From an uncultured Atopobiaceae bacterium (GTDB lineage: Bacteria; Actinomycetota; Coriobacteriia; Coriobacteriales; Atopobiaceae), in NCBI GenBank assembly GCA_947581665.1, contig CANPVI010000001.1:1-61792 (forward strand): a stretch of 61,792 nt of DNA, written 5' to 3'. Positions 45,334-61,377 of this stretch are shown here, piece after piece. Position 1 is the stretch's first letter. Every line of letters begins with the position of its first letter. The notes under the pieces were generated by a model. The model did no database searches. It saw nothing but the letters and a program-made list of their open reading frames with translations, and had not been told where the DNA came from. A program made the position numbers and the translations under genes.

Positions 45334-45415
45334 AAACGGCTGTTCACGATAGGTGCTTTTATTATAGCGATTCTCTTTGCCCTTGTCAATAGTTTTCTGT
45401 CGTACTTTTGCGACA
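45334..45415 (-). promoter_or_regulatory. lexA promoter: palindrome TGTCGCA-aaag-TACGACA, 8 nt, TTGACA-17-TATAAT, then a Cheo-type LexA box GAAC-N4-GTTT
   Basis: Palindrome 45398..45415, -35 at 45384..45389, -10 at 45361..45366, LexA box at 45334..45345 (inside CTATCGT..ACGATAG). Confidence 0.65.
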
Positions 45416-45439
45416 CCCAAAAGTTTTTTTCGGCGGCGC

Positions 45440-45745
45440 TCATTTTTTCTTGTAGTCGGCGAAGGCATATATCGGTGCCGGGTGCTTGCTCTGTCTTCTT
45501 GCCATGTAGCCGTACATACTCACATTGTAGAGCTTGCCGTCTGCGTGGATGGCAAGCGTGAAGAAGTCCGTCCCCTTGCTCGGATCGATCTCTTCTCCGT
45601 TCATCCATACGCAGCCGAGGTCCTTCGCCCATTGGAGAAAGGCTCTCCCCTCTCTCTTCATATCCTTTACAGTGAACCATACCATCTGCTCATTCCCACA
45701 CATATCCTTGTAGGTCAATTCGGTTGTCTTCGTTACTTTTCGCAT
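45440..45745 (-). CDS. hypothetical 101-aa protein
   Basis: MRKVTKTTELTYKDMCGNEQMVWFTVKDMKREGRAFLQWAKDLG..; GAGAGG SD. Start is ATG 45745. Confidence 0.6.
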   Translation of the reverse strand: MRKVTKTTELTYKDMCGNEQMVWFTVKDMKREGRAFLQWAKDLGCVWMNGEEIDPSKGTDFFTLAIHADGKLYNVSMYGYMARRQSKHPAPIYAFADYKKK

Positions 45746-45749
45746 AAAA

Positions 45750-45911
45750 ATACCTCTCTGTTGGATTCCACAAAGAGGTATGAGAAAACCCATCGTCCGA
45801 TGGGTTCTTCCTTTCGTTATATCCCATCGTTCAGCCTTTAGCACCTTGCCGTTCGGTAGGTTGCTGTGCGGTCATTGGGGCTGTCCCTAACGCACTCTTT
45901 ATGGTACTTTT
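45750..45911 (-). promoter_or_regulatory. ~160-nt attenuator-like leader of 45440..45745
   Basis: On the RNA, CGATGGG (45829..45823), CCCATCG (45804..45798) and CGATGGG (45795..45789) are followed by UUUUCUC. An SD-sequestering hairpin follows at 45750..45781. Confidence 0.5.
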
Positions 45912-45940
45912 ATTATAATGCCTGTTTGCCCACAAGTCAA
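45912..45940 (-). promoter_or_regulatory. consensus promoter TTGACT-17-TATAAT (leftward)
   Basis: -35 at 45940..45935 and -10 at 45917..45912. Confidence 0.65.
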
Positions 45941-45966
45941 TGTTATGTGCCACTTTATTTTTGGGA

Positions 45967-45984
45967 TGTCGCACTTATGCGACA
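45967..45984. promoter_or_regulatory. palindrome TGTCGCA-ctta-TGCGACA between divergent promoters (candidate operator)
   Basis: Perfect 7-bp arms. Same motif as at 45398, 48861 and 61360. Confidence 0.6.
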
Positions 45985-46016
45985 ACAAAAATTTTCCCCA
46001 CACACCCCGTTTGGCA

Positions 46017-46045
46017 TTGACTTCTCTCGGCGGTTCGAGTATAAT
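46017..46045 (+). promoter_or_regulatory. consensus promoter TTGACT-17-TATAAT (rightward)
   Basis: -35 at 46017..46022 and -10 at 46040..46045. Confidence 0.7.
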
Positions 46046-46051
46046 ATCATC

Positions 46052-46375
46052 GTAAGCCATTGGTATTTGAAGACCGTGCTATGTCGCCCTACAAGGGTTT
46101 GACGAGGAAACCCCCAAGGCTTTGAGACATTTTGGGATTGATGATAGCGCACCGTACCAGTGACCCCCTTCCGTAACCCATCGGCACTAACGTGGTCTTT
46201 GAAAATTCTCGTTATACCACGGACAGAGCAAGTGAGCTTCTTGCGTGCTTCTGCGTTACACCAACAAATCGAGCAATGGGCATTGCCCACTTGCTTGTTT
46301 TGCGTTGTGTGTAACGATGGGAGCGACCGAGTCAGTTTCTTTCCCCTACACACAGCGTGTGGGGGTTTATTTTTG
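46052..46375 (+). ncRNA. ~320-nt structured leader / ncRNA ending in an intrinsic terminator, upstream of the mini-HNH gene; class not recognised
   Basis: 10-bp closing helix 46066..46075 / 46194..46203. Terminator CCCCTACACAC-agc-GTGTGGGGG+TTTATTTTT (46343..46375). Competing pairings are GTGTGTA (46307) with TACACAC (46347), and CGTTACAC (46254) with GTGTAACG (46309). Confidence 0.5.
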
Positions 46376-46397
46376 GCTCGGAAAGGAGGTGTTATCT

Positions 46398-46739: not shown

Positions 46740-46744
46740 AAGAC

Positions 46745-46787
46745 GAACACCCCAAAGCCTCGGCTCTGGGGTGTTCCTTTATGTTTT
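46745..46787. terminator. bidirectional rho-independent terminator between convergent genes
   Basis: GAACACCCCAAAGCC-tcg-GCTCTGGGGTGTTC, flanked by an A-run and a T-run. Confidence 0.7.
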
Positions 46788-46793
46788 ATCCAA

Positions 46794-47351
46794 TTATCCT
46801 GCTCTGGGGTATCCGCGCTTTGCCAAGTCATCATACACTTCGCTTACTGCCGCATAGAAGTTTTCGCCATACTGCGCTGGCGGTTTAATGTACGACACAT
46901 CCCCATACTTGTATCTCATGACCGCCGTTGAGAAGACAAATGCATCGAACTCCATTCCCTGCTCGAAATATTGCTTGTTCTGGCTCCCATCTGCGTTTAT
47001 CGGGCCGTGGTATTGTTCGGTTTCCTCCACCCACTTCTTCAATGTGCCGGGGGAGATAACTGTTTCCCTACCGCTCTCCATGTCATCAATCTGTGAGTAT
47101 TGGAAGATATGGCGGATTTCGTGAAGTAAAAAATATTCTATCTGTAATGGTTCGTTCTTTTCAAATGCCGTGACAACCGAGGCTATATTGAGCTGCAATA
47201 CATCTTCCTTTCGGCTGTATGCGCCAAAAACTGCAGGACGTTCATTAAAGAAAAATGTCCAACGTACCTGTTTTTTGAGTGCGAAAAAACACATATCACT
47301 CCGAATGATATTGCTGATTAACGGCGCATATTGCTCATAGATTCTCTGCAT
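46794..47351 (-). CDS. putative zinc metallopeptidase (HExxH)
   Basis: ..IEYFLLHEIRHIFQYSQ.. Start set to ATG 47351; the SD is weak. Confidence 0.5.
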   Translation of the reverse strand: MQRIYEQYAPLISNIIRSDMCFFALKKQVRWTFFFNERPAVFGAYSRKEDVLQLNIASVVTAFEKNEPLQIEYFLLHEIRHIFQYSQIDDMESGRETVISPGTLKKWVEETEQYHGPINADGSQNKQYFEQGMEFDAFVFSTAVMRYKYGDVSYIKPPAQYGENFYAAVSEVYDDLAKRGYPRAG

Positions 47352-47401
47352 TATTTTATGTTTCCCTGTTGGTCTTTCATTGATGCCGGGGTATCCGCCT
47401 G

Positions 47402-47635
47402 TCAGTCCCAATATACTGCCCAATGCATCTGCTCTGGTGTCATCCTTCTTCCTTCTTGAGCATATTTCAGGAACATCATCCTGCAATACGAATCGATGGG
47501 ATCCTTGGAGAGTACCTTCTGGGCGAGATGTTCACCCCAGACCTTGTCTTCGTCCAAGCAATTCGAGAGTATATAATCGTGGACGAGCTTCTCTTCTTCG
47601 GCTGTGAGCTCCCGCTCTTCCTCGAATTCATCCAT
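47402..47635 (-). CDS. hypothetical 77-aa acidic protein
   Basis: MDEFEEERELTAEEEKLVHDYILSN..; GGAGGG SD. Confidence 0.45.
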   Translation of the reverse strand: MDEFEEERELTAEEEKLVHDYILSNCLDEDKVWGEHLAQKVLSKDPIDSYCRMMFLKYAQEGRRMTPEQMHWAVYWD

Positions 47636-47651
47636 CCCAATTATCCCTCCG

Positions 47652-48815
47652 TCAATCGTCTTCGTCCGCCAAGGATTCCTTGTATTCTTCAATGTCCTTT
47701 TCCCATTTGACCATCCGTTTGTCGAGGATTGGATTTTTCAGTTCCTTTAATCTGGGGAGTATAAAGGAAACGAATGCGTCCATCCCGCCCGTCTCGGTGT
47801 CGGTATAGCATAAGTCCAAAAGGTCGCTCACCATGTCCGCCTTGTCGCCCAATTTTATCTTGGCATCGTCAAGCAGTCCCTGTAATAACTGAACGGCGAG
47901 TGTGCCATTATTCCTCTTCAAAGCCATAAAAATAAACTGTTCGTAGCCGTACAGCACGCTGTCGCGTTCCCTGATTATGGAGAGGAAAAATTCTGTATTG
48001 GCGGCAATGTAGTCGTAGACCTTTTCTGCAAATCCTTTGGGCATATCGTCTGGATAACCAAGGGAGAATGTGGTAATATCCTGCACCCCTTCTTCGTCAT
48101 AGCAAGCATACGGAGTGAATTCCTTTACGAGCCATGCCCAAATTTCAACGGCGAGATCTACATTGTACTCCGCTATTTTTCTCATGAGGTCGCACAGGAT
48201 GTCATCCGTTGAATAGTAGTCGGTGAACTCCTTGGGGAGCCCATGCCCATGCACGACCGCATCGACAAGCTCAAAGCCGTATAACTCATCGCAATACTGT
48301 GCGGCGATACAGTTTTGGGAAAGGATGAACTCACAGCGGCGCATCCGCAAACGATCTTGTTCGTCCAATTCTCTGCACGATTTTAAGTAAGGGAGAGTGC
48401 CTTCCGCCTCTTCCCTCCGTGATGTGACTCCCCCATCAGCACTCGGTTTTCTTGTCGATACGGAAATGGAGAGTTCTATGGATATACCGCTGTCCGACTC
48501 GCCCGCATCGTCCACTTCGTCTATGTCGTCCAAGTCGTCATCGCCGTCATCGTTGCACAGCATTTTGGTGTGCGGGTTCTCAAAATCGCCTTCGTCTATA
48601 TCGTCATCAAGCTCGTCCGAAAAATCATCCTCGTCATCATCACCAAAGTCGGTGGTCACCTTTTCTTGGGACTTTTCATAGGCTTCCCGCATCTCGCGTT
48701 CTTCCTCGTCGACAACCGCCCGCTCAAAGAAGTCATAGTGACCATCCTTGTCTTTGTCATGGATCCCAAGCGGATCCATCATTTTATAAAATTCGTCAAG
48801 AAAATCTTTCCCCAT
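47652..48815 (-). CDS. 387-aa protein with an extremely acidic N-terminal third; unknown function; apparently leaderless mRNA
   Basis: ..DFGDDDEDDFSDELDDDIDEGDFENP..DDGDDDLDDIDEVDDAGESD.. ATG 48815 lies 8 nt after the -10 box and no SD is present. Confidence 0.6.
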   Translation of the reverse strand: MGKDFLDEFYKMMDPLGIHDKDKDGHYDFFERAVVDEEEREMREAYEKSQEKVTTDFGDDDEDDFSDELDDDIDEGDFENPHTKMLCNDDGDDDLDDIDEVDDAGESDSGISIELSISVSTRKPSADGGVTSRREEAEGTLPYLKSCRELDEQDRLRMRRCEFILSQNCIAAQYCDELYGFELVDAVVHGHGLPKEFTDYYSTDDILCDLMRKIAEYNVDLAVEIWAWLVKEFTPYACYDEEGVQDITTFSLGYPDDMPKGFAEKVYDYIAANTEFFLSIIRERDSVLYGYEQFIFMALKRNNGTLAVQLLQGLLDDAKIKLGDKADMVSDLLDLCYTDTETGGMDAFVSFILPRLKELKNPILDKRMVKWEKDIEEYKESLADEDD

Positions 48816-48823
48816 ACACACCT

Positions 48824-48878
48824 ATTATAACATTCTGCGTTCCCCATGTCAATAATGACCTGTCGCAAAAGTGCGACT
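48824..48878 (-). promoter_or_regulatory. palindrome AGTCGCA-cttt-TGCGACA, 8 nt, TTGACA-17-TGtTATAAT
   Basis: -10 at 48824..48829, -35 at 48847..48852, palindrome at 48861..48878. Confidence 0.7.
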
Positions 48879-48889: not shown

Positions 48890-49189
48890 CTATCTCTCGG
48901 CTTCGGTTCGGACATACAGCATGATGCAGTCCACATATTTTTGTTCATATCGGTAAAGCGTCCGAGAGGTGCAATATCTCTCAATCGCCACTCCGTCTAT
49001 GGTCTTTCTGCGGTTCGGTCCTTCGCCAAATATGCTTTTTATGATCTCGGTATGGTTTGTCTGTTCGATTGCGTCATACACCGCAAAAAACTCTACCGCC
49101 TTTCGGTAGGCTGCTATGTAAATCGGATCCCGTTCATCAATTTGCCGTACTATCATTTTCGCTGTTCGGCTATAAGAGTAACTGCCCAT
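48890..49189 (-). CDS. 99-aa putative HTH protein (sigma region-4/DUF1492-like C-terminus)
   Basis: ..IERYCTSRTLYRYEQKYVDCIM.. Confidence 0.45.
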   Translation of the reverse strand: MGSYSYSRTAKMIVRQIDERDPIYIAAYRKAVEFFAVYDAIEQTNHTEIIKSIFGEGPNRRKTIDGVAIERYCTSRTLYRYEQKYVDCIMLYVRTEAER

Positions 49190-49642: not shown

Positions 49643-49876
49643 TTATTCGTTCACATCGTCAAATATAGGATCATCGAAAAACTCTTTCATGGTCACTCCC
49701 ATTGTCGAAAGGATGTCGTACAATAGGTTCAAACTGACCTTTTCTTGCTTATGGTTGAACAGCTGTGAAAGCGTGGACTTGGCAATGCCGCCCTCTCGGT
49801 TCAGGCTGTACAGCGTTGCGCCCTTCTGCTGCATAAGCACACGCAATCGCGCTATAACGGCATCTACCAATTTCAT
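49643..49876 (-). CDS. XRE/Cro-CI-type HTH regulator
   Basis: ..LMQQKGATLYSLNREGGIAKSTLSQLFNHKQEKVSLNLLYDI.. Start is ATG 49876 (AGGAGGG). Confidence 0.75.
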   Translation of the reverse strand: MKLVDAVIARLRVLMQQKGATLYSLNREGGIAKSTLSQLFNHKQEKVSLNLLYDILSTMGVTMKEFFDDPIFDDVNE

Positions 49877-49964
49877 GAGCCCCACCCTCCTTTGGTTCTT
49901 TCTACTGAACCCTTTTATTATATTTTATGGTGCATAAAAAAGTGGTTCTACCCATAGAAATCCG

Positions 49965-51843: not shown

Positions 51844-51858
51844 GGAGAATTTAACACT

Positions 51859-52418: not shown

Positions 52419-52991
52419 TTATGCGTTGATTATTACGATTTTGACATCGACAAGCCCCAAGGTTTTTCGTAAATTCTCCCTCTCGCTGTCCGTCAATAGC
52501 CTACCCGTATTTGACAAAAATAGATACATCTTAACTTGCATCGTTTCTTGTTCGGTGTCAATCAAGGCTCTTTTTTCTAACACTTTCCTCAATGCTGATT
52601 CCCATTTTAACACCGTTCCCTTTGCGGCAAATATAATCACCCCATCTGTTTCCGTAATGAAGGTTACGACTTGGTTCTTATCCGTTTGCAAGAGCAATGG
52701 TCCCTCTCGTCTTTCGAGCTCATATTGAACCTTTTCTGTAGAAAGCAATTCACCATTTTTCTTTTTTGCATACTTCCCTATAATGCAGTCTTTAATGTAT
52801 GTGCGAACCTTGTCCTTTCTCATATATTGAGCAAGGACTCCGCCTATTTGCGGATCTGCCGCCATCTCATCAAGCATTACTGTGCTATTAAAAAGGCCTT
52901 GGGAAAAGTATCCCTCCTCTTCCAATTGCTCCCTAATTCTGCTAACCAACTGCGCCTTAACTGCAGGGGGTATAACCACACGATTGCCCAT
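52419..52991 (-). CDS. hypothetical 190-aa protein, 4th gene of the methylase/GHKL/helicase operon
   Basis: The ATG overlaps the helicase stop (TAATG). No motif recognised. Confidence 0.6.
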   Translation of the reverse strand: MGNRVVIPPAVKAQLVSRIREQLEEEGYFSQGLFNSTVMLDEMAADPQIGGVLAQYMRKDKVRTYIKDCIIGKYAKKKNGELLSTEKVQYELERREGPLLLQTDKNQVVTFITETDGVIIFAAKGTVLKWESALRKVLEKRALIDTEQETMQVKMYLFLSNTGRLLTDSERENLRKTLGLVDVKIVIINA

Positions 52992-54649: not shown

Positions 54650-56991
54650 TATATCAACTCCCCTTTAAGGGTTGCAATGCTCCAAGCGCATTTCGTCATT
54701 TCATTTTTTGATAATCGCGCACTTTTTTCGCCTTGAACCAAAAGTGCATCTTTAAGCATTGATATGATCCTTTCTTTAGATTCGGCCTTGATGCGCTCCA
54801 TCGAATCTGCATTGCCCGTATTCGGCAAGGTGTTGTACTTCGCTCTGAACACTTTGCCATCAAACACATCGTCGGGGAACCTATCAACAAGCCTGATTAG
54901 TGTATTCAAGGGGACATATTGAATAATTCCGATAGATTCTGCCGTCCCTTCGTTATATGCCGTCAACAAATCTGGCTCCGTCAATAAAGCCGTTATTGTC
55001 GCCTCTTCTTCCCCTACGGATTCTTTGAGACAAGCAATAACTTCCTCATATTTATGCGCAAGAGCTGCCCCAAGACGTTCTTTGAATTCATCAAAAAACA
55101 TGGTCGCTTGCTCATTCAGCGAACTCTTATCGACTCTCATGTCTTTTAACTCTGATACGGTCAGTGCGCTATAGATGGATACAATATCCCCCACGCTATC
55201 CCGTGCTGCGAACTTGTTGGCGAGATATATCATCAGCAGGCTTTCGGGGTTGCACGACGGGAACTGAGCCAAAAGTTCATGTCGAGGATCGTAGAAGAAA
55301 TCGCATTCTATGCCATCGGAGAAAAACGCCGCTGGCACACGCTTCCCATTGTACCGAATAATCTCCGTTTTCATCTTATGAGCTCTAACATTCAATGGGT
55401 AGGGGTTGTATGCATATTGACGGGAGAGGAGAGCATTTTCCTCAGACCCTCTCAACAACTCATCACAAGTTGAAGAAGCCGTTTGTGACGGAACGGCTTT
55501 GTGGTGTTCTTCTTCGGGTGCAGCTTGAGGCTCTACATCTGCGCCCTCTTCGCCAAAGTAAGAACTCACATCATCAGAGGGAGCGTCGCCGACATCAACA
55601 TCGCCTGCATCTCCTGCGCCGAATGTCCCTATCTCTCGGTCTGCCTCCCTTACTGCTTGATACCATTTTTCATCGGAAATATAGTCGGCATCACCCTTAT
55701 AGAACCTGTCGGCAAACGCTTTTGCCACATCCTTAGGCAATACCAAATTCTTACTCCCTTTGTCTGGACGGCGATATGCTGTCGCAAGGATACCAACGGG
55801 GGATTCATTTTTATCCGCATAGCCGTATGCTTTTCTTGCTGTCGGGAGAATAGGACCTTGTCCGCGAATCGCCTCCATGGTCTGTATCCATGACAAATCC
55901 GTTCTTACGAAATCATTTTTTTGATATGTCGGCAAAAGGTAGTCGACCTCTACGACGCCCACTATTCTACCGCCAACCGTTGAACCCAATTCCACAGGAT
56001 ACTGAATGGTCGAGCTTCCCGTTGCACCATCTTCAAAATAAAATGCATCCTTGTTCGCAATCAGAATTTTCCGTCCATTTCGCACGAAATCTATGCCATA
56101 ATCATTTGTCGAAAAATAGCGTTGTATCCCAACCCATCCTTTGAGACGCTTTTGTCTTTTTACTATATTGGGCGGCAACGGCTCACCCCTTGACACGGCG
56201 ATTTCTATCTCATCCTCTTGCTCAGGCGAAAGATACCTGTTCCGCTCCATATCAAAATAGGTTTCGCCTAAAACCCTATCAATTTTTTGAACGGCATAAA
56301 CCCTTTGTCCATCCCTTATGACATACCGCTCAGGGGACCATACGCAATATTTTTTGGGTACGAGCCTTCTGCCCTGCACATAAATTTCGATATTGTGTTT
56401 CTCAAGCAGAAGTGAATATACATTTTCGAGCTGCCTGCGAATAGCAGCCGTCTTTGTCGAAATATCGTTATAAATACCGTTGTTGAGTTTTGAGATGATT
56501 ATTTTGGTCCCGTGTTCGGAAATGTCGTCTTTTTCCTTATAAACCACGGGAGTCTTAAATGATTTTTGCGATATCAATTGACTGAAATCTATCTCGACTC
56601 CTACCCATTTATCATCCCCTGCTCTGGTAGTAAATATTGTAGATTTATCTCCCAAGCGGGCTGTCGCAATATTATAGCCCATCCCAAAAAGACCCAAATT
56701 ATTGATTGGATCGTTGCCAGAATACCCTGCTTTGACAGCATTCGTCATTTGTTCAAGTGTCATCCCGCAGGCATTATCTATTATTTCAATGGTTCTCTCT
56801 TTGAGCCCCACTCGTTCGGGCGACCAAATAATTTGGATCCTACGATCATCCCTGTCTGCATCATTTGCAAGGAACGCATCCACGGAATTATCAATGAGTT
56901 CAGCAAAGCATTGCCACGGCGAGAAGGGGATCTCTCCCAACATCCTTAACGTTCTGGGGGTAGGTGTAATATCTACAAACGAATCAGCCAT
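54649..56991 (-). CDS. GHKL-superfamily ATPase (HATPase_c_3 / MORC-MutL-like) with a long uncharacterised C-terminal region
   Basis: N box ..FAELIDNSVDA.., G1 ..IDNACGM.., G2 ..GLFGMGYN... 780 aa. The stop overlaps the helicase ATG. Confidence 0.8.
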   Translation of the reverse strand: MADSFVDITPTPRTLRMLGEIPFSPWQCFAELIDNSVDAFLANDADRDDRRIQIIWSPERVGLKERTIEIIDNACGMTLEQMTNAVKAGYSGNDPINNLGLFGMGYNIATARLGDKSTIFTTRAGDDKWVGVEIDFSQLISQKSFKTPVVYKEKDDISEHGTKIIISKLNNGIYNDISTKTAAIRRQLENVYSLLLEKHNIEIYVQGRRLVPKKYCVWSPERYVIRDGQRVYAVQKIDRVLGETYFDMERNRYLSPEQEDEIEIAVSRGEPLPPNIVKRQKRLKGWVGIQRYFSTNDYGIDFVRNGRKILIANKDAFYFEDGATGSSTIQYPVELGSTVGGRIVGVVEVDYLLPTYQKNDFVRTDLSWIQTMEAIRGQGPILPTARKAYGYADKNESPVGILATAYRRPDKGSKNLVLPKDVAKAFADRFYKGDADYISDEKWYQAVREADREIGTFGAGDAGDVDVGDAPSDDVSSYFGEEGADVEPQAAPEEEHHKAVPSQTASSTCDELLRGSEENALLSRQYAYNPYPLNVRAHKMKTEIIRYNGKRVPAAFFSDGIECDFFYDPRHELLAQFPSCNPESLLMIYLANKFAARDSVGDIVSIYSALTVSELKDMRVDKSSLNEQATMFFDEFKERLGAALAHKYEEVIACLKESVGEEEATITALLTEPDLLTAYNEGTAESIGIIQYVPLNTLIRLVDRFPDDVFDGKVFRAKYNTLPNTGNADSMERIKAESKERIISMLKDALLVQGEKSARLSKNEMTKCAWSIATLKGELI

Positions 56992-57009
56992 ATTGATATC
57001 TCCTTTCGG

Positions 57010-57966
57010 TTATGCCTTAAAATATTCTTCGATTGAACAGCCCACTTTATATGCCAATAGCGGAGGGACCGCATTCCCAATCTGTCGCATATTTCGCGTT
57101 AAGCTATGGCGAAAAACGAATGTGTCTGGAAATGTTTGAATCCTTGCGCACTCTCTTACGGTCAGTCGGCGTGGCAACTCATAATGAAACTGTATATGAG
57201 AGCGCGAATTGGCTCTGACAGTATAGGCGGGCTCATCTCGCTTACTCACCTCATCGCCTTGGACACCGATGCCGGGGGTTTTGTTTGCCTTGAAATATTG
57301 GCTCTGATTCGGTATGCTTTCATCGGTCACATCGATCAAGTCGCCAATTGCCCATTCGATTGATTTGACATCCTCGCTTTCTGCAGGGCGAACGGGAAAA
57401 CCTTTTTTCTCAAATATGTCATCCCTAACGCCAATTATAATAATCCTCATTCGCATTTGTGGAACACCGAACTTTTTACAAGGCATTTGCCATATCGTAA
57501 AATGATATCCTTCGGCCTCAAAGTCGGACAGGATTTGTTTAAGGACTTCACCCTTCTTCATGTTCAATAAATTATATACATTTTCACCAATAACCATTTT
57601 AGGTTTGTGAAATTGCATATACCGCTTCATCGCCAGATAAAGTCTTCCGCGTTCTGAATTCAGTCCCAAAAGTGGACCGCATAACGAGAAGTCTTGGCAA
57701 GGAAAACCGCCTGCTAAGATATCCGCATACGGCATCTTGGAAACATCTGCGATGCCTAAATCCTTTTGTTCCGCCACCTTATGTATGTTGTCATTATATG
57801 TCTGCACACACAGCGGATCAAAATCATAGGCGGCAATGACATTAAAAGGCAACTTACTGTAGGTTTCGCCCTTATATTCAAATCCGCCTTGGAAGCCGAG
57901 GTCGAATCCACCGCACCCGCAGAAAAATGAAATTACAGAATATTCGGTCTGTTTCTTTTGAGCCAT
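57010..57966 (-). CDS. DNA (cytosine-5)-methyltransferase
   Basis: FFCGCGGFDLG (I), GFPCQDFS (IV), ENV (VI), QMRMR (VIII), LTVRECARIQTFPD (IX), GNAVPP (X). Confidence 0.9.
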   Translation of the reverse strand: MAQKKQTEYSVISFFCGCGGFDLGFQGGFEYKGETYSKLPFNVIAAYDFDPLCVQTYNDNIHKVAEQKDLGIADVSKMPYADILAGGFPCQDFSLCGPLLGLNSERGRLYLAMKRYMQFHKPKMVIGENVYNLLNMKKGEVLKQILSDFEAEGYHFTIWQMPCKKFGVPQMRMRIIIIGVRDDIFEKKGFPVRPAESEDVKSIEWAIGDLIDVTDESIPNQSQYFKANKTPGIGVQGDEVSKRDEPAYTVRANSRSHIQFHYELPRRLTVRECARIQTFPDTFVFRHSLTRNMRQIGNAVPPLLAYKVGCSIEEYFKA

Positions 57967-58155
57967 GTTTACCTCATTTAATTCGGTAGTATCATAATTG
58001 CGATGAATACTCCCTTGATTATGCTGAAAGCATACGAGTTTATTTTACCATAAAAACGCCGAAATAGCAATAGATTAGCCCCTGTCAAATGGAATTTAGC
58101 ACCCATTTTCTCCGATAAAGGTCTTGCTCATCAGCGCATGATTACTCCTATGCTC

Positions 58156-58812
58156 TCAAAATGCTTGTCCCCTTGGCAAAGACATAATGTATTTTCTCAC
58201 GGCCTCACTCATTATATTGGTTACCGTGACCGCAGTTCTATTGTTTACTATAATGGCTGCTGTGGTTTTGTCATCATCGGATCCGACCGCAATTTTCCCA
58301 TGTATAACCATGGGTTCTCCTGCCTTTAGCGTGGCAAGTTGGTCAAAATTCGAGAAATGGATCCCATTGCAAGCCCAATCGTAAAATTCATCAAACTTCT
58401 CAAAGTCCTCTGCGACCTTCTTTTTTACGGCTCCATCCCTCAGAGATTCTCCGCTTTCTGCATTACCATAATTCAATTTTTGTTTCCTCAGTACACGCAA
58501 TAAGAACTGGTCTGCGCCCAACAATTTCACTCTATATGCCGTCATGGGAAGGTCGGCGAGCATCCGCATAAGAGCGGTTTGAACAATTATATTCCCCTTT
58601 TTTGCGGCATCAGCGATTGCATCCAAAATGTTTACGGCTCGGTTAAAAAGCATAAGTATTGTAAAAGTCCGAGCATAAATTGTAAACCCATCTGCTACAG
58701 CAATTTGCGCAAATTGACCAATTATGTCCTTTTTCCTCTCTTCAATTTTATCGATGGAATCGGCAAGCGCAAGCTGCAATTTTTGGGACACATCCCTATC
58801 ATTCTCTGCCAT
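58156..58812 (-). CDS. hypothetical 218-aa protein (last gene of the WYL-headed operon)
   Basis: Starts 14 nt after the upstream stop. Composition suggests a mostly helical protein. No motif recognised. Confidence 0.6.
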   Translation of the reverse strand: MAENDRDVSQKLQLALADSIDKIEERKKDIIGQFAQIAVADGFTIYARTFTILMLFNRAVNILDAIADAAKKGNIIVQTALMRMLADLPMTAYRVKLLGADQFLLRVLRKQKLNYGNAESGESLRDGAVKKKVAEDFEKFDEFYDWACNGIHFSNFDQLATLKAGEPMVIHGKIAVGSDDDKTTAAIIVNNRTAVTVTNIMSEAVRKYIMSLPRGQAF

Positions 58813-58825
58813 TCAGTCCACCCTC

Positions 58826-59617
58826 TCAATCCAAATGACCATGATACTTTACCTTGTCTGCGCCAAGATCCCTTAACGCCTTCTCTATTATCCGTGACTT
58901 GACATCCATTATATACTTGGTTGTCCCAAGCGTGTCTGGGGTGAGAACATACCACTTGCCGTCAAACTTGAATGTAAAATATACATCGTCGACCTCATAT
59001 TCTTGCTCCATTTCCAACCCATAGAACGCATCGGCAAGCGTTTGCAAGGCCTCCCCAACGGCATTGGGCAAGACGGTCCCGTCCTGAATAACAATGAGTC
59101 CGTCATCTTCATCCGATTCCACGGCTTGTGGGACATAGAGCTTTGTGCTGAACATCTCGCCCAAAACACCATAAAAATTCAAAAATTCAGTCAGCGAATC
59201 TATGAATTGAGGATAATCCTTGGGTAGTTCGGTTTCGTTAAAATGGCCGCTGACTTTTCGTTCGCTTCCATCATCGAATAGCACAGTCACTTTGTACTTA
59301 CGGATATCTTGCGAGTCGCCATCGTCCGCTGCTTTGAAGTCGGCATCCATTGCAAAGAGGGTTTTAGCGTCAAAGCGGTCAAGAAAATCTGACACAGCTT
59401 CTGCCGAATGATACTTTAAGGTCAGCCCACACTCTTCTGCCATTTTTCGAGATATCGTTACCACTTCGGTCTGGCGGTCAATGACGATTTTTTCCTTGTT
59501 ATCCCAACGGATAATCATCGGCCCCTCTTGATTGGGAATCGGATTATCCTCTCTCACGATGGTAACCGTGTGCTTGAAATTAAAGGTGATTTTTTGTATA
59601 ATTCTCTTTTTTCTCAT
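58826..59617 (-). CDS. hypothetical 263-aa protein
   Basis: ATGA overlap with the upstream gene. No motif recognised. Confidence 0.6.
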   Translation of the reverse strand: MRKKRIIQKITFNFKHTVTIVREDNPIPNQEGPMIIRWDNKEKIVIDRQTEVVTISRKMAEECGLTLKYHSAEAVSDFLDRFDAKTLFAMDADFKAADDGDSQDIRKYKVTVLFDDGSERKVSGHFNETELPKDYPQFIDSLTEFLNFYGVLGEMFSTKLYVPQAVESDEDDGLIVIQDGTVLPNAVGEALQTLADAFYGLEMEQEYEVDDVYFTFKFDGKWYVLTPDTLGTTKYIMDVKSRIIEKALRDLGADKVKYHGHLD

Positions 59618-59916
59618 CCTTTTTCCCTTGTTCTCGCTTCGGCAAGCAGTATATCAAGCCGTGCTGCGATGCGATTTTCCTTTTCATTCAGCTTTTCAAT
59701 ATCAAATTCAAGGGCCTTGCGCTCATTCTGCAAAGCCTTGTATTGTTTGCCGCCGGGGGTTGCAAGGATCGTATCCACTATCCTGCCCTGCTTTTTCAAA
59801 AGTGTTTCCCTTTGGCGGCTGACAGCCAACCGTTGTGCAAGGAGATCGTCAGTCCTCTCTCCTAACTGTTTGTCGGTCCACCGACGCATTCTCTTTTTAT
59901 AAAGCCACTTTATCAT
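59614..59916 (-). CDS. hypothetical 100-aa basic coiled-coil protein
   Basis: MIKWLYKKRMRRWTDKQLGERTDDLLAQRLAVSRQRETLLKK.. Confidence 0.55.
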   Translation of the reverse strand: MIKWLYKKRMRRWTDKQLGERTDDLLAQRLAVSRQRETLLKKQGRIVDTILATPGGKQYKALQNERKALEFDIEKLNEKENRIAARLDILLAEARTREKG

Positions 59917-59925
59917 CTGCGCAAA

Positions 59926-60276
59926 CTACTCTTCGACTCTCTCGTAGCCGTTTGTCAAGAGTTCTTCTACCCATTCCTCAAAGGTAGAGAAGTCCTTCTT
60001 GCTCCACTCGTACTCAATGGTAACCGTTTGGTTCTTTGCCACGAGTTTCCACTTATTGGCGGTTTCCCTTGCTTGGAAGAGAATATCGCCCATTTTGAAC
60101 GTGCCTCTGTCCGAGTTGGTTGTCTTTACGACTACTTCTACTTTTGTCATCTCTTTATCCTCCATATATTTGTCATATTGTTTTGCGGTCATGCAGACTG
60201 GCCCTTTCTCCGTTTCCACTCGCATAATGAAGTCATCATCGGACACGGTGTCTGGCTCTAAAAATTCATGTTTCAT
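59926..60276 (-). CDS. hypothetical 116-aa protein
   Basis: Start set to ATG 60276 (AAGGGGTGGAG SD), 11 nt after the WYL gene stop. MKHEFLEPDTVSDDDFIMRVETEKGPVCMTAKQY.. Confidence 0.6.
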   Translation of the reverse strand: MKHEFLEPDTVSDDDFIMRVETEKGPVCMTAKQYDKYMEDKEMTKVEVVVKTTNSDRGTFKMGDILFQARETANKWKLVAKNQTVTIEYEWSKKDFSTFEEWVEELLTNGYERVEE

Positions 60277-60287
60277 CGCTCCACCCC

Positions 60288-61295
60288 TTATTCCGAATAG
60301 TTTTTGAGTGCTTGCTGTATGTGTTCCTTGATGCGGTCCACCACGGTCTGCGGTGCTGTCACTTTTAGCGTTTCTCCAAACCCACACACCCACGAAAGGA
60401 ACGGATTGCTTATCTGGACTTCGACCGAAAATTCTATCTTGCCATCGCCTTTCTCACGGATTTTGATGCCATCTCCAAACTTGTCGTACACGGCGTCCAG
60501 AATGCCCACAGAACCCTCAAAGGTTACTTCCTCGGTTTCCCCTCCGAACATACTCATGAGGCTCCTCTGGTGGCGTTTAAGGTCGAAGTCTGCCTTCTCT
60601 TTACTTGGTGTGATTTTCTCGTCAAGCATCCGTACTTCGTCCATCTTGTCCACTCGATATTGCACCACGTTGCCGTGGTAGTCATTGTAGCAAAACAGGT
60701 AGTATTTATCGTCCTTGAACACGGTTGCTATGGGGTTCACCACATACCACCTTTTCTCGCCGGGGACAGATGTCCGCATCCGATATTGCCGTTGGTGCTT
60801 GGCATCGTAGTCGAAGTAATAAAAGCCGACTTTGTGTTTGTTGGTAATCGCTTGTGCTATTTCGCTGACCGAATAATAAATGCTTTCGTTCGTCCCCTTG
60901 ACCGTTCCGAACTGCACGATATTGTGTTTCAGCACCTCCGCTTTCTGCGTCCCCGCGAGTTGCGCTATCTTGTCTATCAGCACTGGGGTTTTCTTCTCGG
61001 TGATGAAACTTGCCGCCTGCACAGCGTCCATAAGGATTTGTAATTCGGGCAAGTCAAAGCTGCGATCCACGACATAGTATTCGTTGGTGCGTCCTCGGTT
61101 GCTCAATATCTCATAGCCGAATTGGTTAAGTTCTTCGATGTTGCGGTAGAGGGTACGGCGGTCGCACGAGATGCCGCACTCCGCCAATCTTGCTATAAGG
61201 TCAGCGGTACTCATCGGGTGGTCTTCGTCCGTTTCCCGATTGAGGATTTCCCAAATTTTCAGATACTTGATTTTTGAAATGCTGTCCGTTACCAA
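60288..61295 (-). CDS. WYL-domain transcriptional regulator (HTH-WYL-WCX; BrxR/CapW/YafY type)
   Basis: N-terminal HTH ..YLKIWEILNRETDEDHPMSTADLIARLAECGISCDRRTLYRNIEEL.. WYL core ..HKVGFYYFDYD..RWYVVNPIATVFKDDKYYLFCY.. TTG start with GGAGGG SD. Confidence 0.8.
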   Translation of the reverse strand: MVTDSISKIKYLKIWEILNRETDEDHPMSTADLIARLAECGISCDRRTLYRNIEELNQFGYEILSNRGRTNEYYVVDRSFDLPELQILMDAVQAASFITEKKTPVLIDKIAQLAGTQKAEVLKHNIVQFGTVKGTNESIYYSVSEIAQAITNKHKVGFYYFDYDAKHQRQYRMRTSVPGEKRWYVVNPIATVFKDDKYYLFCYNDYHGNVVQYRVDKMDEVRMLDEKITPSKEKADFDLKRHQRSLMSMFGGETEEVTFEGSVGILDAVYDKFGDGIKIREKGDGKIEFSVEVQISNPFLSWVCGFGETLKVTAPQTVVDRIKEHIQQALKNYSE

Positions 61296-61321
61296 GGTCT
61301 ATCCCTCCATTATGCTCTCCT

Positions 61322-61377
61322 ATTATATCATATCAGTCACCCTTTTGTAAAGGGCGAGATGTCGCAAAAGTGCGACA
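61322..61377 (-). promoter_or_regulatory. WYL-operon promoter: palindrome TGTCGCA-cttt-TGCGACA, 8 nt, TTTACA-18-TGaTATAAT
   Basis: -10 at 61322..61327, -35 at 61346..61351 (inside CCCTTT-aca-AAAGGG), palindrome at 61360..61377. Confidence 0.65.

What the first reader, a model, noticed from the sequence alone, without database searches (positions are those of the whole stretch)
45398..61377. Four-site regulon: palindrome TGTCGCA-N4-TGCGACA, placed exactly 8 nt upstream of the -35 of three near-consensus promoters
Copies lie at 45398..45415 (TGTCGTA cttt TGCGACA), 45967..45984 (perfect arms), 48861..48878 (one mismatch) and 61360..61377 (perfect arms). At P-lexA, at P-47652..48815 and at the WYL-operon promoter, the palindrome ends exactly 8 nt from the -35 hexamer, so its centre is near -53. 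The fourth copy sits between the divergent consensus promoters at 45912..45940 and 46017..46045. Identical geometry at three promoters up to about 16 kb apart cannot be chance. One dimeric regulator apparently coordinates the SOS cassette, the acidic-protein/HExxH operon, the two attenuator-leader transcripts and the WYL-headed defence-like operon. The WYL protein itself is the prime candidate because BrxR/CapW-type regulators autoregulate through inverted repeats. The XRE 49643..49876 and the 99-aa HTH 48890..49189 are alternatives. Because the site lies upstream of -35, activation or alpha-CTD/UP-element occlusion is more likely than simple steric repression.
Basis: seen in the sequence. Interest (0 to 1): 0.8.

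Follow-up and report, generated by a model that had tools for sequence, protein, structure and literature searches.

The report
Prophage WYL regulator's fixed-position operator regulon
A prophage of a gut-type Clostridia bacterium carries four copies of one 18-bp palindrome next to its strongest promoters, and comparison with related phages points to the phage's own WYL-domain regulator as the binder, linking an anti-phage defence operon to a phage-borne DNA-damage cassette.

Summary
Four TGTCGCA-N4-TGCGACA sites exist, against 0.27 expected by chance. Three of them end exactly 8 nt before the -35 of near-consensus promoters.

The window is one siphovirus-type prophage inserted into another element's terminase gene. 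The WYL operon sits at its right end.

Comparative evidence points to the WYL protein (60288-61295) as the binder.
- In 16 lineages of WYL homologues (35-100% identity), an 18-mer [T/A]GT-N12-AC[A/T] lies 7-9 nt upstream of the -35 of the WYL-operon promoter. In 12 of the 16 the gap is exactly 8 nt. The downstream defence cargo differs between lineages.
- The operator sequence changes together with the WYL recognition helix.
- In two diverged relatives, the lineage-specific operator also sits 8 nt from the -35 of the lexA-like promoter. In both it also lies next to the SAM-riboswitch gene promoter.
- The XRE and 99-aa candidates are absent from the stretches held for these relatives.

The protein resembles the ssDNA-sensing activators DriD and PafBC more than the repressors BrxR and CapW. 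The site centre (-52.5) matches the activator DdaA.

The direction of regulation (activation or repression) is inferred, not shown.

Verdict: a solid new member or variant of a known kind (WYL regulators coupling DNA-damage and defence genes). It is moderately interesting.

The parts
61360..61377 (.). Operator site 4, TGTCGCAAAAGTGCGACA (perfect arms), 8 nt upstream of the -35 of the WYL-operon promoter
   Evidence: Position and GTC...GAC core are conserved in 16 WYL lineages.
61322..61351 (-). Promoter of the WYL operon (TTTACA-18-TATAAT, with a TG-extended -10)
   Evidence: The same architecture is seen in homologous loci.
60288..61295 (-). wHTH-WYL-WCX regulator (335 aa, TTG start), the proposed binder of the four sites
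   Evidence: Pfam WYL 2.4e-10, WCX 5.4e-9, HTH_11 4.9e-4. Homologues keep the N-terminal helix. Foldseek gives DriD 2e-13 and PafBC 9e-12, against BrxR 2e-6.
52419..60393 (-). Cargo of the WYL operon: four small ORFs (59926-60393, 59614-59916, 58826-59617, 58156-58812), a C5 DNA methyltransferase (57010-57966), a MORC-like GHKL ATPase (54649-56991), an Mrr-nuclease/ResIII helicase (52991-54649) and a 190-aa ORF (52419-52991)
   Evidence: The same MTase-GHKL-helicase-190aa block (80-91% identity) follows a WYL that is only 57% identical in L154. Other WYL heads carry McrBC, LlaJI or Pycsar-like cargo. Related phages found through the lexA-like gene carry BREX or type I R-M genes at the same end.
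48861..48878 (.). Operator site 3, TGTCGCAAAAGTGCGACT, 8 nt upstream of -35
   Evidence: The equivalent site is present in L180.
48824..48852 (-). Consensus promoter (TTGACA-17-TATAAT, TG-extended) of the acidic 387/389-aa gene
46794..48821 (-). Genes downstream of site 3: an acidic 389-aa protein (47652-48821), a small ORF, and an HExxH-containing ORF (46794-47486). None has a known family.
45967..45984 (.). Operator site 2, TGTCGCACTTATGCGACA (perfect arms), 26 nt from the -35 of the SAM-riboswitch promoter and 32 nt from the -35 of the plus-strand promoter
   Evidence: The 26-28-nt offset to a SAM-riboswitch promoter recurs in L180 and L121. In contig A the offset is 8 nt.
45912..45940 (-). 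Promoter (TTGACT-17-TATAAT) driving the SAM riboswitch and a 101-aa ORF
45440..45907 (-). SAM riboswitch (45821-45907) followed by a 101-aa ORF of unknown function (45440-45745)
   Evidence: RF00162, 51.9 bits against a gathering score of 44.4. A counterpart is found in L147 at 9165-9257.
46017..46045 (+). Divergent promoter (TTGACT-17-TATAAT) with a leader of about 200 nt and an ORF with a weak HNH match (46245-46739). Its membership of the regulon is doubtful.
   Evidence: No Rfam hit. L180 has no divergent gene here.
45398..45415 (.). Operator site 1, TGTCGTACTTTTGCGACA, 8 nt upstream of the -35 of the lexA-like promoter
   Evidence: It is conserved at lexA-like promoters of L180, L182 and L186-188, and with variant sequence in contig A and L121.
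45361..45389 (-). Consensus promoter (TTGACA-17-TATAAT) of the lexA-like/umuC-like operon
45329..45350 (.). Second operator, a Cheo-like palindrome ATCGTGAAC-AGCC-GTTTACGAT (read on the minus strand) at about +5 to +26. It is probably bound by the LexA-like protein or by host LexA, not by WYL.
   Evidence: The position is conserved but the sequence varies by lineage in contig A, L164, L180, L182, L184, L186 and L121.
43399..45304 (-). LexA-like S24 peptidase repressor (44702-45304) and a Y-family polymerase of the UmuC/IMS family (43399-44685)
   Evidence: Pfam Peptidase_S24 1.4e-26, LexA_DNA_bind 8.7e-6, IMS 1.6e-25.

Best explanation
The 18-bp palindrome is the operator of the prophage's own wHTH-WYL-WCX regulator (60288-61295). 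A dimer reads the two outer GTC/GAC cores (GTC-N10-GAC).

At three promoters the operator sits at one fixed place, -61 to -44 (centre -52.5). From there the bound dimer would touch RNA polymerase, most likely through the alpha C-terminal domain, rather than block it. These three promoters belong to the WYL defence operon itself, the lexA-like/umuC-like cassette and the acidic-protein operon.

A fourth site lies about two helical turns further upstream (centre about -70.5) of the promoter of a SAM-riboswitch gene.

By analogy with DriD, PafBC, DdaA and CapW, the WYL domain probably senses single-stranded DNA made during DNA damage or phage attack. The regulon would then couple that signal to the defence operon and to the phage-borne damage-tolerance genes.

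I judge activation somewhat more likely than repression. The lexA-like promoter is additionally gated by a separate LexA-type box near +10.

Shown here: the sites, their geometry, their conservation, and their co-variation with the WYL protein.
Inferred: binding, the ligand, the RNA polymerase contact, and the sign of regulation.

The confidence given (0.55) is for the whole statement, including activation. Confidence that WYL is the binder, whatever the sign, is about 0.85.
For: (a) The sites and their geometry are far beyond chance.

(b) Offsets were counted among 196 non-identical promoter-like sites in the window and 23 related loci. [T/A]GT-N12-AC[A/T] 18-mers occur at offset 8 (21 times), 7 (4 times), 9 (twice) and 26 (4 times). 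Every other offset from 0 to 30 has at most one.

(c) All 16 WYL lineages (35-100% identity) have such an 18-mer 7-9 nt upstream of the -35 of the WYL-operon promoter. The downstream cargo differs between them: McrBC, LlaJI, Pycsar-like or the MORC-like block. An alignment of nine of these promoters keeps only GTC, AC, one -35 base, the TG extension and the -10 invariant.

(d) The operator co-varies with the recognition helix:
- CDRRTLYR goes with TGTC...
- S/C-HRTT-I/L-Y goes with TGTAGCG
- SERKFIYR goes with AGTTCCA

(e) The regulon is conserved with a lineage-specific operator.
- In contig A (WYL 54%) the operators are TGTAGCGGTAAACCGACA (WYL operon), AGTAACGGGAAACCGACA (SAM-riboswitch gene) and TGATGCGGAAAAATGACA (lexA-like). 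Each is 8 nt from a -35.
- In L121 (WYL 53%) TGTCGCGG... sits at both the WYL operon and the lexA-like promoter.
- L182 has a 98%-identical WYL fragment and TGTCGTAATAGTGCGACA-8-TTGACA at its lexA-like gene.

(f) WYL and lexA-like genes are direct neighbours in L164-168.

(g) Family membership and relatives.
- Pfam finds WYL and WCX domains.
- phmmer against the PDB finds only DriD and PafC.
- Foldseek gives DriD 2e-13 and PafBC 9e-12, against BrxR 2e-6 and CapW 9e-6.
- The invariant YYL and YRVD residues align with DriD residues Y192 and R207, which contact ssDNA (PMC10853764).

(h) Literature.
- The DdaA motif lies about 50 bp upstream of transcription start sites, and DdaA controls both DNA-damage and defence genes (PMC12392091).
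- At the Caulobacter recA promoter, DriD acts from upstream of -35 alongside a LexA box (PMC9186387).
- The DriD/DdaA half-site core CGWC shares the GTC seen here (PMC10853764, PMC12392091).

(i) The second discrete offset (26-28 nt, about two helical turns further) at SAM-riboswitch promoters fits a flexible alpha-CTD-type contact.
Against: - No binding or expression data exist.
- The regulated promoters are near-consensus (12/12 at two of them). They should be strong without an activator, which fits a repressor better.
- The N-terminal wHTH has no significant sequence match to DriD or any other solved regulator, so equivalence of recognition residues is unproven.
- The co-variation falls into only about three classes and is not perfectly regular. 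L164 and L170 change helix residues but keep GTC.
- The core spacing (GTC-N10-GAC) differs from DriD and DdaA (GWC-N7-GWC).
- Most related loci cover only about 6-10 kb either side, so a co-inherited second regulator elsewhere in those phages cannot be excluded.
- The structure model is of moderate quality (pLDDT 72, pTM 0.36).
- L132, a Clostridia MAG, has the identical palindrome and geometry in front of an unrelated gene, with no WYL gene in the 8 kb held.
Confidence: 0.55

Rival explanations
1. The binder is the same WYL dimer, but it acts as a repressor like BrxR or CapW. In the unperturbed lysogen it keeps these intrinsically strong promoters down from -52.5. It could do this by occupying the UP-element/alpha-CTD zone, or by holding RNA polymerase at the promoter, as phage phi29 protein p4 does at the strong A2c promoter (recalled from memory, not checked here). 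ssDNA would release it and de-repress the regulon.
For: - Two of the promoters match the consensus 12/12 and the others 11/12, several with a TG extension. Such promoters seldom need activators.
- WYL regulators that head defence operons and have been studied (BrxR, CapW) are ligand-released repressors (PMC9122601, PMC11662680).
- Autoregulation of a first-gene regulator is usually negative.
- The operator covers the region where an UP element would lie.
Against: - BrxR operators lie downstream of the promoter, where they can block RNA polymerase (PMC9122601). Here the operator never overlaps the -35 or -10 in any of the 16 lineages.
- A steric repressor would not need a gap fixed to within 1 nt across proteins only 35% identical.
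- The protein is closer to the activators DriD and PafBC than to BrxR and CapW.
- Most WYL-operon promoters keep a sub-optimal -35 (TTTACA, TAGACA, TTGCGG), as activator-assisted promoters do.
Confidence: 0.3
2. Another DNA-binding protein recognises the palindrome. Candidates are the XRE protein (49643-49885), the 99-aa protein (48890-49189), the LexA-like protein, or a host factor. On this view its presence at WYL promoters only reflects shared ancestry of the promoter region.
For: - The same palindrome serves as the operator of XRE-S24 CI/Cro switches in unrelated low-GC phages (L090 and others). So HTH proteins of other families can read it.
- An XRE homologue (61-67% identity) accompanies the lexA-like gene in L184-188.
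- L132 shows the exact site and geometry without a WYL gene in the 8 kb held.
Against: - XRE and 99-aa homologues are absent from contig A, L121 and L182 and from all WYL loci except a weak 28% hit in L161, although the operator geometry is kept there.
- The operator sequence changes with the WYL recognition helix, while the WYL gene is the only constant gene of those operons.
- The lexA-like promoters have their own, separately varying GAAC-N4-GTTC-type box. The 40%-identical lexA-like gene in L164 lacks the operator at -52.5.
- A host factor would not explain lineage-specific operator variants within similar hosts.
Confidence: 0.08
3. The palindromes are not protein operators. They would be RNA hairpins or terminators, or chance repeats.
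For: The scan flags sites 3 and 4 as weak terminator-like hairpins on the plus strand.
Against: - Genes here run on the minus strand, where no U-run follows the hairpin.
- A strong terminator already lies just upstream of site 4, at 61407-61432.
- The chance expectation is 0.27 sites.
- The offset to the -35 is conserved while the stem sequence changes between lineages. This is a DNA-level constraint, not an RNA-level one.
Confidence: 0.01

Closest known systems
DdaA, the WYL-family activator of Acinetobacter/Moraxellaceae (PMC12392091; also PMC13010146)
   Same: - It is a wHTH-WYL regulator with a palindromic motif about 50 bp upstream of transcription start sites.
- One regulator controls both DNA-damage genes (in some lineages including umuD) and anti-phage defence loci (CRISPR-Cas, R-M).
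- Its half-site core contains G-W-C.
   Different: - DdaA is chromosomal, is found in Gammaproteobacteria, and replaces the SOS system.
- Its motif is CGWCA-N5-TGWCG (GWC-N7-GWC), whereas here it is GTC-N10-GAC.
- The regulator here is phage-encoded, in a Clostridia-type prophage.
- It heads a swappable defence cargo and coexists with a LexA-like repressor.
DriD (Caulobacter) and PafBC (Actinobacteria), ssDNA-activated WYL transcription activators
   Same: - They are the best sequence and fold matches.
- Domain order is the same: wHTH, helical linker, WYL, WCX.
- The YYL and R residues align with residues of DriD that contact ssDNA.
- DriD acts upstream of -35 together with a LexA box at recA (PMC9186387).
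- The DriD half-site CGTC shares the GTC core (PMC10853764).
   Different: - Identity is only 16-17%, and the wHTH is not alignable by sequence.
- The DriD site abuts or overlaps -35 (PMC9186387, PMC13004042), and PafBC replaces -35 recognition. Here there is an 8-nt gap and intact -35 hexamers.
- The half-site spacing is 3 bp longer here.
- Those regulators are chromosomal.
BrxR and CapW, WYL repressors at the head of defence islands (PMC9122601, PMC11662680)
   Same: - The regulator is the first gene of a defence operon and autoregulates through an inverted repeat.
- It is associated with varied and swappable defence systems.
- CapW senses ssDNA.
   Different: [quoted passage not shown] Here the site is always upstream of -35 at a fixed distance.
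- Similarity is weaker (Foldseek 2e-6 to 1e-5, 9% identity, and no phmmer hit).
- No multi-operon regulon that includes DNA-damage genes is described for BrxR or CapW in the passages read.
CI/Cro operators of low-GC temperate phages (for example locus L090 from IMG/VR)
   Same: The DNA consensus is identical, TGTCGCA-N4-TGCGACA, and is used in several copies.
   Different: There, two or three copies overlap the divergent cI/cro promoters, spaced about 100 and 244 bp apart, next to an XRE-S24 repressor. No WYL protein and no 8-nt geometry are seen. The resemblance appears to be coincidental.

Membership tests
wHTH-WYL-WCX transcription regulators | WYL domain followed by a WCX domain | tested here: met
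   PF13280 2.4e-10 (residues 144-223) and PF25583 5.4e-9 (residues 255-330). The PADLOC WYL model scores 2.4e-26.
wHTH-WYL-WCX transcription regulators | [quoted passage not shown] | tested here: met
   HTH_11 scores 4.9e-4, below the Pfam cut-off. The model shows three helices and then two strands at residues 2-74 with pLDDT 78-90. Full-length Foldseek alignments to DriD, PafBC and BrxR cover it.
wHTH-WYL-WCX transcription regulators | Dimer binds a palindromic operator in its own promoter region | tested here: inconclusive
   Binding cannot be tested with these tools. Indirect support: a (pseudo)palindrome at the WYL-operon promoter in 16 of 16 lineages, co-varying with the recognition helix.
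wHTH-WYL-WCX transcription regulators | Ligand (ssDNA) pocket residues in the WYL domain | tested here: inconclusive
   Invariant Y198/Y199/L200 and Y213/R214/D216 align with DriD N-Y-L and W-R-L-D in the phmmer alignment. DriD Y192 and R207 contact ssDNA (PMC10853764). The ligand itself was not tested.
Activator subgroup (DriD / PafBC / DdaA) | Closer in sequence and fold to the activators than to the repressors | tested here: met
   phmmer against the PDB hits only DriD (3e-4) and PafC (0.013). Foldseek gives DriD 2.4e-13 and PafBC 8.8e-12, against BrxR 2.4e-6 and CapW 8.8e-6. TM-scores are low (about 0.28) because the domain arrangement in the model is uncertain.
Activator subgroup (DriD / PafBC / DdaA) | Operator upstream of, or abutting, the -35, in a position to contact RNA polymerase | tested here: met
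   The centre is at -52.5 at three window promoters and throughout the family. [quoted passage not shown]
Activator subgroup (DriD / PafBC / DdaA) | Operator of the form CGWC-N7-GWCG | tested here: not met
   The conserved cores here are GTC-N10-GAC. The trinucleotide is the same but the spacing is 3 bp longer.
Activator subgroup (DriD / PafBC / DdaA) | ssDNA-dependent stimulation of transcription | not testable with these tools
   This needs in vitro transcription or reporter assays.
Repressor subgroup (BrxR / CapW) | Heads a defence operon or island | tested here: met
   The WYL gene is the first gene of the operon with the MTase, the MORC-like GHKL ATPase and the Mrr-ResIII helicase. Homologues head McrBC, LlaJI and Pycsar-like cargo.
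Repressor subgroup (BrxR / CapW) | Operator overlaps or follows the core promoter (steric block) | tested here: not met
   The operator is always 7-9 nt upstream of the -35. The BrxR R-BOX1 lies downstream of the -10.
LexA / SOS (Cheo) box | GAAC-N4-GTTC palindrome overlapping or downstream of the promoter | tested here: not met
   The TGTCGCA palindrome does not match this pattern. A separate Cheo-like box lies at 45329-45350 and is conserved in position in relatives.

The most novel reading that the evidence does not exclude
A family of Clostridia-type temperate phages carries its own DriD/PafBC-like ssDNA-sensing WYL activator. It uses a promoter architecture not described for WYL regulators in the papers read here: a GTC-N10-GAC operator locked at -52.5, with a second allowed position about two helical turns further upstream. 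With it the phage would run a phage-encoded, SOS-parallel damage and infection regulon. That regulon would switch on a swappable defence hotspot, a phage LexA-like/translesion-polymerase cassette and a SAM-riboswitch-gated gene together. The prophage would then sense host DNA damage or superinfection independently of host LexA/RecA.
Probability: 0.4. Interest if true: 0.6.

Novelty: new member of a known kind. Interest (0 to 1): 0.5.

Why it matters
WYL regulators are emerging as the link between DNA-damage sensing and anti-phage immunity, but the characterised examples met in the literature read here are chromosomal or plasmid-borne and come from Proteobacteria and Actinobacteria.

This case offers a phage-encoded example from gut-type Clostridia with three useful properties:
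- a clearly readable operator code;
- a rigid promoter geometry that can be tested by simple spacing mutants;
- a small regulon that joins a defence hotspot to a LexA-like/UmuC cassette.

If confirmed, it would allow three things:
- predicting WYL regulons in prophages from sequence alone (operator, 8 nt, then -35);
- explaining how prophage-borne defence cargo is switched on;
- asking whether one WYL scaffold activates or represses depending on promoter strength.

Tried and rejected
- **Generic palindrome scan of IMG/VR.** It did reveal unrelated low-GC phages that use the same palindrome as CI/Cro operators.
- **Exact 18-mer scan of IMG/VR.** Two unrelated hits only.
- **Geometry pattern (palindrome, 8 nt, TTKACA) in genome contigs.** Eight hits, about the number expected by chance. 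L136 is the same WYL promoter region with the gene replaced. L132, L129 and L134 are intriguing but unlinked to WYL in the DNA held.
- **Geometry pattern in JGI metagenomes.** Ten chance-like environmental hits.
- **Megablast of 44.6-49.3 kb against phages and plasmids.** No match.
- **IMG/VR search with the 389-aa protein.** No relatives.
- **Pfam and PHROGs on the regulated small genes.** Mostly no family.
- **PDB search with the wHTH and linker alone.** No meaningful hit, so I could not verify that the RRT..R motif of the recognition helix is equivalent to DriD R36/R37/T38/R41. I leave that as a lead only.
- **Exact-protein look-ups for the window's WYL, lexA-like and 389-aa proteins.** They returned only near-identical short contigs and gave no information on co-variation.
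- **LexA-like protein as the binder.** Rejected because of the separate, co-varying Cheo-like box.
- **Terminator reading.** Rejected on strand and U-run grounds.

Full report
**1. The observation**

The pattern TGTCGCANNNNTGCGACA occurs four times with at most one mismatch, at 45398, 45967, 48861 and 61360. There are no further matches at two mismatches. The chance expectation is 0.27, and no shuffle out of 100 reaches four. Three mismatches add only two background-level hits.

A consensus promoter scan of 43-61.8 kb ranks five sites on top, and these are exactly the five promoters flanking the palindromes. Reading the sequence gives these geometries:

| Site | Promoter | Gap to -35 | Promoter sequence |
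|---|---|---|---|
| 1 | lexA-like | 8 nt | TTGACA-17-TATAAT |
| 3 | 389-aa gene | 8 nt | TTGACA-17-TATAAT, TG-extended |
| 4 | WYL operon | 8 nt | TTTACA-18-TATAAT, TG-extended |
| 2 | minus-strand promoter | 26 nt | TTGACT-17-TATAAT |
| 2 | plus-strand promoter | 32 nt | TTGACT-17-TATAAT |

An 8-nt gap places the operator at -61..-44, with its centre at -52.5. Outside the palindrome and the hexamers the regions are unrelated, so these are independent sites and not duplicated cassettes.

**2. Context**

The window is a siphovirus-type prophage read on the minus strand. It encodes a tape-measure protein, major head protein, portal, large terminase, primase/helicase and methyltransferases, with three large serine recombinases at 2.0-6.9 kb.

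The whole element lies inside a split large-terminase gene of a GC-richer element.
- The N-terminal part ends at about 61.73 kb. Compare the 280-aa TerL fragment next to the same WYL promoter in L136.
- The C-terminal part is at 1275-1745.

The WYL operon is therefore the right-end module of the same prophage, not a neighbouring island.

Genes near the sites:
- a LexA-like S24 repressor plus a UmuC-type polymerase (43399-45304);
- a SAM riboswitch with a 101-aa ORF;
- an ORF with a weak HNH match;
- an acidic 389-aa protein and an HExxH ORF;
- a 99-aa ORF;
- an XRE protein;
- a YpsA-like protein;
- a 375-aa serine recombinase;
- the WYL-headed operon, with a C5 methyltransferase, a MORC-like GHKL ATPase and an Mrr-nuclease/ResIII helicase.

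**3. Who binds? Comparative evidence**

Searching by DNA pattern was unproductive. Searching by protein worked.

WYL homologues were found in the large protein collection and in IMG/VR. Their contigs were fetched. In every lineage examined the promoter of the WYL operon has an 18-mer of the form [T/A]GT-N12-AC[A/T], usually a 7-N4-7 palindrome, 7-9 nt upstream of the -35:

| Locus | WYL identity | Operator | Gap |
|---|---|---|---|
| window | 100% | TGTCGCACTTTTGCGACA | 8 |
| L148 | 90% | TGTCGCAAAAATATGACA | 8 |
| L149 | 70% | TGTCATATTTTTGCGACA | 8 |
| L150 | 72% | TGTCATACTTTTGCGACA | 7 |
| L152 | 62% | TGTCGCAATAATTGCACA | 8 |
| L153/L154 | 57-58% | AGTCATACTTTTGCGACT | 7 |
| L122 (contig A) | 54% | TGTAGCGGTAAACCGACA | 8 |
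| L121 | 53% | TGTCGCGGATTTTGTACA | 7 |
| L123-126 | 50% | TGTAGCGTAATAGCTACA | 8 |
| L160 | 49% | TGTCGCTTAACTTGTACA | 8 |
| L163 | 48% | TGTCGCATAAATTGTACA | 8 |
| L162 | 46% | TGTCCGCAAATGCGGACA | 8 |
| L164-168 | 43% | TGTCGTGAAATTGCGACA | 8 |
| L170 | 39% | TGTCACATTTTTGTGACA | 8 |
| L171 | 36% | AGTCCGTAAAATTGTACT | 8-9 |
| L172 | 35% | AGTTCCAAAATTGGTACT | 8 |

(Sources.)

Offsets were counted over 196 non-identical promoter-like sites in the window and 23 related loci. Such 18-mers occur at offset 8 (21 times), 7 (4), 9 (2) and 26 (4). Every other offset from 0 to 30 has at most one.

An alignment of nine of these promoter regions keeps only GTC, AC, one -35 base, the TG of an extended -10, and the -10 itself invariant.

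The cargo behind the WYL gene differs between lineages. The WYL-headed operons fetched carry McrBC with a methyltransferase, LlaJI, or a Pycsar-like cyclase. Related phages found through the lexA-like gene carry BREX or type I R-M genes at the same end. The window's own cargo block is 80-91% identical behind a WYL that is only 57% identical, in L154. So the WYL gene is the only constant partner of the operator.

The operator sequence changes together with the predicted recognition helix:
- CDRRTLYR goes with TGTC...
- S/C-HRTT-I/L-Y-D/E goes with TGTAGCG.
- SERKFIYR goes with AGTTCCA.

**4. Is it a regulon?**

Yes, and the regulon is older than this phage.

Contig A (L122+L147) has WYL at 54% and the lexA-like protein at 66% identity. 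Its own operator variant lies 8 nt from the -35 of three promoters:
- the WYL operon, with two copies 31 bp apart;
- a consensus promoter driving a SAM riboswitch plus a small ORF;
- the lexA-like/umuC promoter.

In L121 (WYL 53%, lexA-like 48%), TGTCGCGG... heads both the WYL operon and the lexA-like promoter. The lexA-like site also lies 28 nt from a divergent SAM-riboswitch promoter.

Loci found through lexA-like homologues show the same picture:
- L180 (97%) has all three sites, including site 2 at 26 nt.
- L182 (73%) has a 98%-identical WYL fragment at its contig start and TGTCGTAATAGTGCGACA-8-TTGACA.
- L186-188 (68%) have AGTCGCAAAAGTGTGACA-8-TTGACA.
- L184 is ambiguous.
- In L164-168 the lexA-like gene is the divergent neighbour of the WYL gene, but its own promoter lacks the operator at -52.5.

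The conserved core of the regulon is therefore the WYL operon, the lexA-like/umuC cassette and the SAM-riboswitch gene. The acidic-protein operon is added in the window and in L180. Regulation of the plus-strand HNH-like promoter by site 2 is not supported, because L180 has no divergent gene there.

**5. Rival binders**

The XRE and 99-aa proteins have no homologue in contig A, L121 or L182, or in the WYL loci (only a 28% XRE hit in L161).

The lexA-like promoters carry a second palindrome near +10 of the GAAC-N4-GTTC type. Its sequence varies by lineage:
- GTGAAC-N4-GTTTAC in the window;
- TTGAAC-N4-GTTCAA in contig A;
- GAAAC-N4-GTTTC in L182;
- GGAC-N4-GTCC in L186;
- a canonical box inside the spacer in L164.

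(Sources.) This is the natural target of a LexA-type protein, and it leaves the TGTC palindrome to another factor.

The palindromes are not terminators. The strand is wrong, no U-run follows them, and the constraint is on distance to the -35.

It is the linkage and co-variation that point to WYL.

**6. What kind of WYL regulator, and how might it work?**

Pfam finds WYL and WCX domains and a weak HTH. By sequence, only DriD and PafC among solved structures match. A model of moderate quality (pLDDT 72) matches as follows by Foldseek:

| Structure | Role | E-value |
|---|---|---|
| DriD | activator | 2e-13 |
| PafBC | activator | 9e-12 |
| BrxR | repressor | 2e-6 |
| CapW | repressor | 9e-6 |

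Family-invariant YYL and YRVD residues align with DriD residues that contact ssDNA (PMC10853764).

Published facts that bear on the mechanism:
- DriD and PafBC are ssDNA-activated activators, while CapW and BrxR are repressors released by ligand (PMC11662680).
- The DriD site abuts or overlaps the -35. At recA it lies 17 nt upstream and coexists with a LexA box (PMC9186387, PMC13004042).
- The DdaA motif CGWCA-N5-TGWCG lies about 50 bp upstream of transcription start sites, and DdaA controls both DNA-damage and defence genes (PMC12392091).
- BrxR boxes lie downstream of the promoter (PMC9122601).

The present operator shares the GTC core with DriD and DdaA, but the cores are 10 bp apart instead of 7.

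My inference is as follows. A spacing fixed to within 1 nt across proteins only 35% identical, plus a second allowed position about two turns upstream, is the signature of a stereospecific contact with RNA polymerase, most likely with the alpha-CTD. It is not the signature of steric occlusion.

On whether that contact activates or represses:
- For activation: the affinity to the activator subgroup, the DdaA-like position, and the sub-optimal TTTACA/TAGACA/TTGCGG -35 elements at WYL promoters.
- For repression: the 12/12 consensus promoters at the lexA-like and 389-aa genes, and the precedent of defence-island WYL repressors. Over-stabilising RNA polymerase in the way of phi29 protein p4, or excluding alpha-CTD from the UP zone, would be the mechanism.

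I put these at about 0.55 and 0.3. Either way the expected output is induction on DNA damage or phage attack. The lexA-like operon would be doubly gated by its own +10 box.

**7. Comparison and novelty**

The thing is a member of the wHTH-WYL-WCX regulators. It works most like DdaA: one WYL factor at about -50 that couples damage and defence genes. It looks most like DriD and PafBC.

It fails the DriD/DdaA operator-spacing criterion and the BrxR/CapW operator-position criterion.

What is new is the setting and the architecture:
- a temperate phage of Clostridia;
- a defence hotspot at the prophage end;
- a rigid operator-8-nt-(-35) architecture;
- a phage regulon that includes a LexA-like/UmuC cassette and a SAM-riboswitch gene.

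My searches of the paper library found no description of this. I rate it a new member, bordering on a new variant, of a known kind, with interest 0.5.

**8. Limits**

- There are no binding or expression data.
- Most related loci are fragments of 12-20 kb.
- The co-variation rests on few classes.
- The wHTH could not be aligned to solved structures by sequence.
- The host was not identified beyond Clostridia-type MAG relatives.

Noticed in passing
window 45821-45907 (-), ORF 45440-45745 (-); L147 9165-9257 (+), ORF 9279-9626: A SAM (S-box) riboswitch is encoded in the prophage, upstream of a roughly 100-aa ORF with no family or PDB match. A counterpart in the related phage contig A also precedes a small ORF, but the two ORFs are not detectably similar by BLASTP. 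L121 and L180 have the same riboswitch leader. Why a phage gates a small gene on SAM is unexplained. The methyltransferase and defence context is suggestive.
   Followed up: partly
window 1275-1745 (-) and 61487-61792 (-); L136 3799-4641: The whole ~59.7-kb prophage sits inside a split large-terminase gene of a GC-richer (61%) element. The ATPase part is on the right flank and the C-terminal part on the left. Three tandem large serine recombinases (2019-6884) lie at the left end. L136, L127 and L150 show the same truncated-TerL/WYL-promoter junction. This is a phage inserted into another phage's, or phage-like element's, packaging gene.
   Followed up: partly
window 45329-45350; L147 ~9955-9975; L164 ~5740-5760; L182, L184, L186 upstream of the lexA-like gene: The lexA-like promoters carry a second palindrome of the GAAC-N4-GTTC type near +10, or inside the spacer in L164. 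Its arms differ between phage lineages (GTGAAC, TTGAAC, GAAAC, GGAC). This suggests that each phage's LexA-like protein has its own slightly shifted SOS-box specificity.
   Followed up: partly
window 52419-57966 vs L154 7202-12760; L148, L149, L150, L152, L182, L184, L186: There is a defence-cargo hotspot behind the WYL gene. The MTase, MORC-like GHKL ATPase, Mrr/ResIII helicase and 190-aa block is 80-91% identical in L154, where the WYL is only 57% identical. Other WYL heads carry McrBC with an MTase, LlaJI or a Pycsar-like cyclase; related phages found through the lexA-like gene carry BREX or type I R-M genes at the same end. The MORC-like GHKL plus Mrr-helicase pair has no PADLOC system assignment.
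   Followed up: partly
L090 1679-2042; also L028, L031, L002, L047, L063, L078 (IMG/VR): Unrelated low-GC phages use the very same TGTCGCA-N4-TGCGACA palindrome as two or three operators, spaced about 244 and 102 bp apart, in the divergent cI (XRE-S24)/cro switch region.
   Followed up: partly
window 50716-52290 (+); contig A 471-2017; L153, L160, L162, L163: A 375-aa serine recombinase and a 143-aa ORF lie immediately upstream of the WYL-operon promoter, on the same strand, in several relatives. In the window they sit at the far end of the operon in convergent orientation. This suggests inversion or cassette shuffling of the defence module.
   Followed up: no
L132 7795-7826 (Clostridia MAG JAZNLR010000094.1): An identical palindrome, including the AAAG spacer, followed by 8 nt and TTGACA-17-TAAAAT, lies in front of an unrelated 232-aa gene that has a paralogue. 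No WYL gene is seen in the 8 kb held. It could be a host or other-prophage member of the same regulon, or chance.
   Followed up: no
window 48815-48830 (-): The ATG of the acidic 387-aa protein lies only 8 nt downstream of the -10 hexamer of its consensus promoter, so the mRNA may be leaderless or nearly so.
   Followed up: no
window 45416-45435; L182, L184, L186, L121 and contig A upstream of the lexA-like operator: An A-tract/T-tract (AAAAAWTTTTT-like) lies directly upstream of the operator (about -62 to -80) at the lexA-like promoters of all lineages. It may be a bend or an alpha-CTD site.
   Followed up: no
L121 1-420: A tRNA gene is followed by six tandem ~19-bp repeats (TAATCGTGCAAAAGTAGGG-like) at the end of a related phage contig. 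They may be recombinase or replication-protein binding sites.
   Followed up: no
window 46046-46245 (+); L147 9680-9860 (+): Leaders of about 200 nt, which look structured by eye (not folded here), follow consensus promoters and have no Rfam match even at a relaxed threshold. The two are not obviously homologous to each other.
   Followed up: partly
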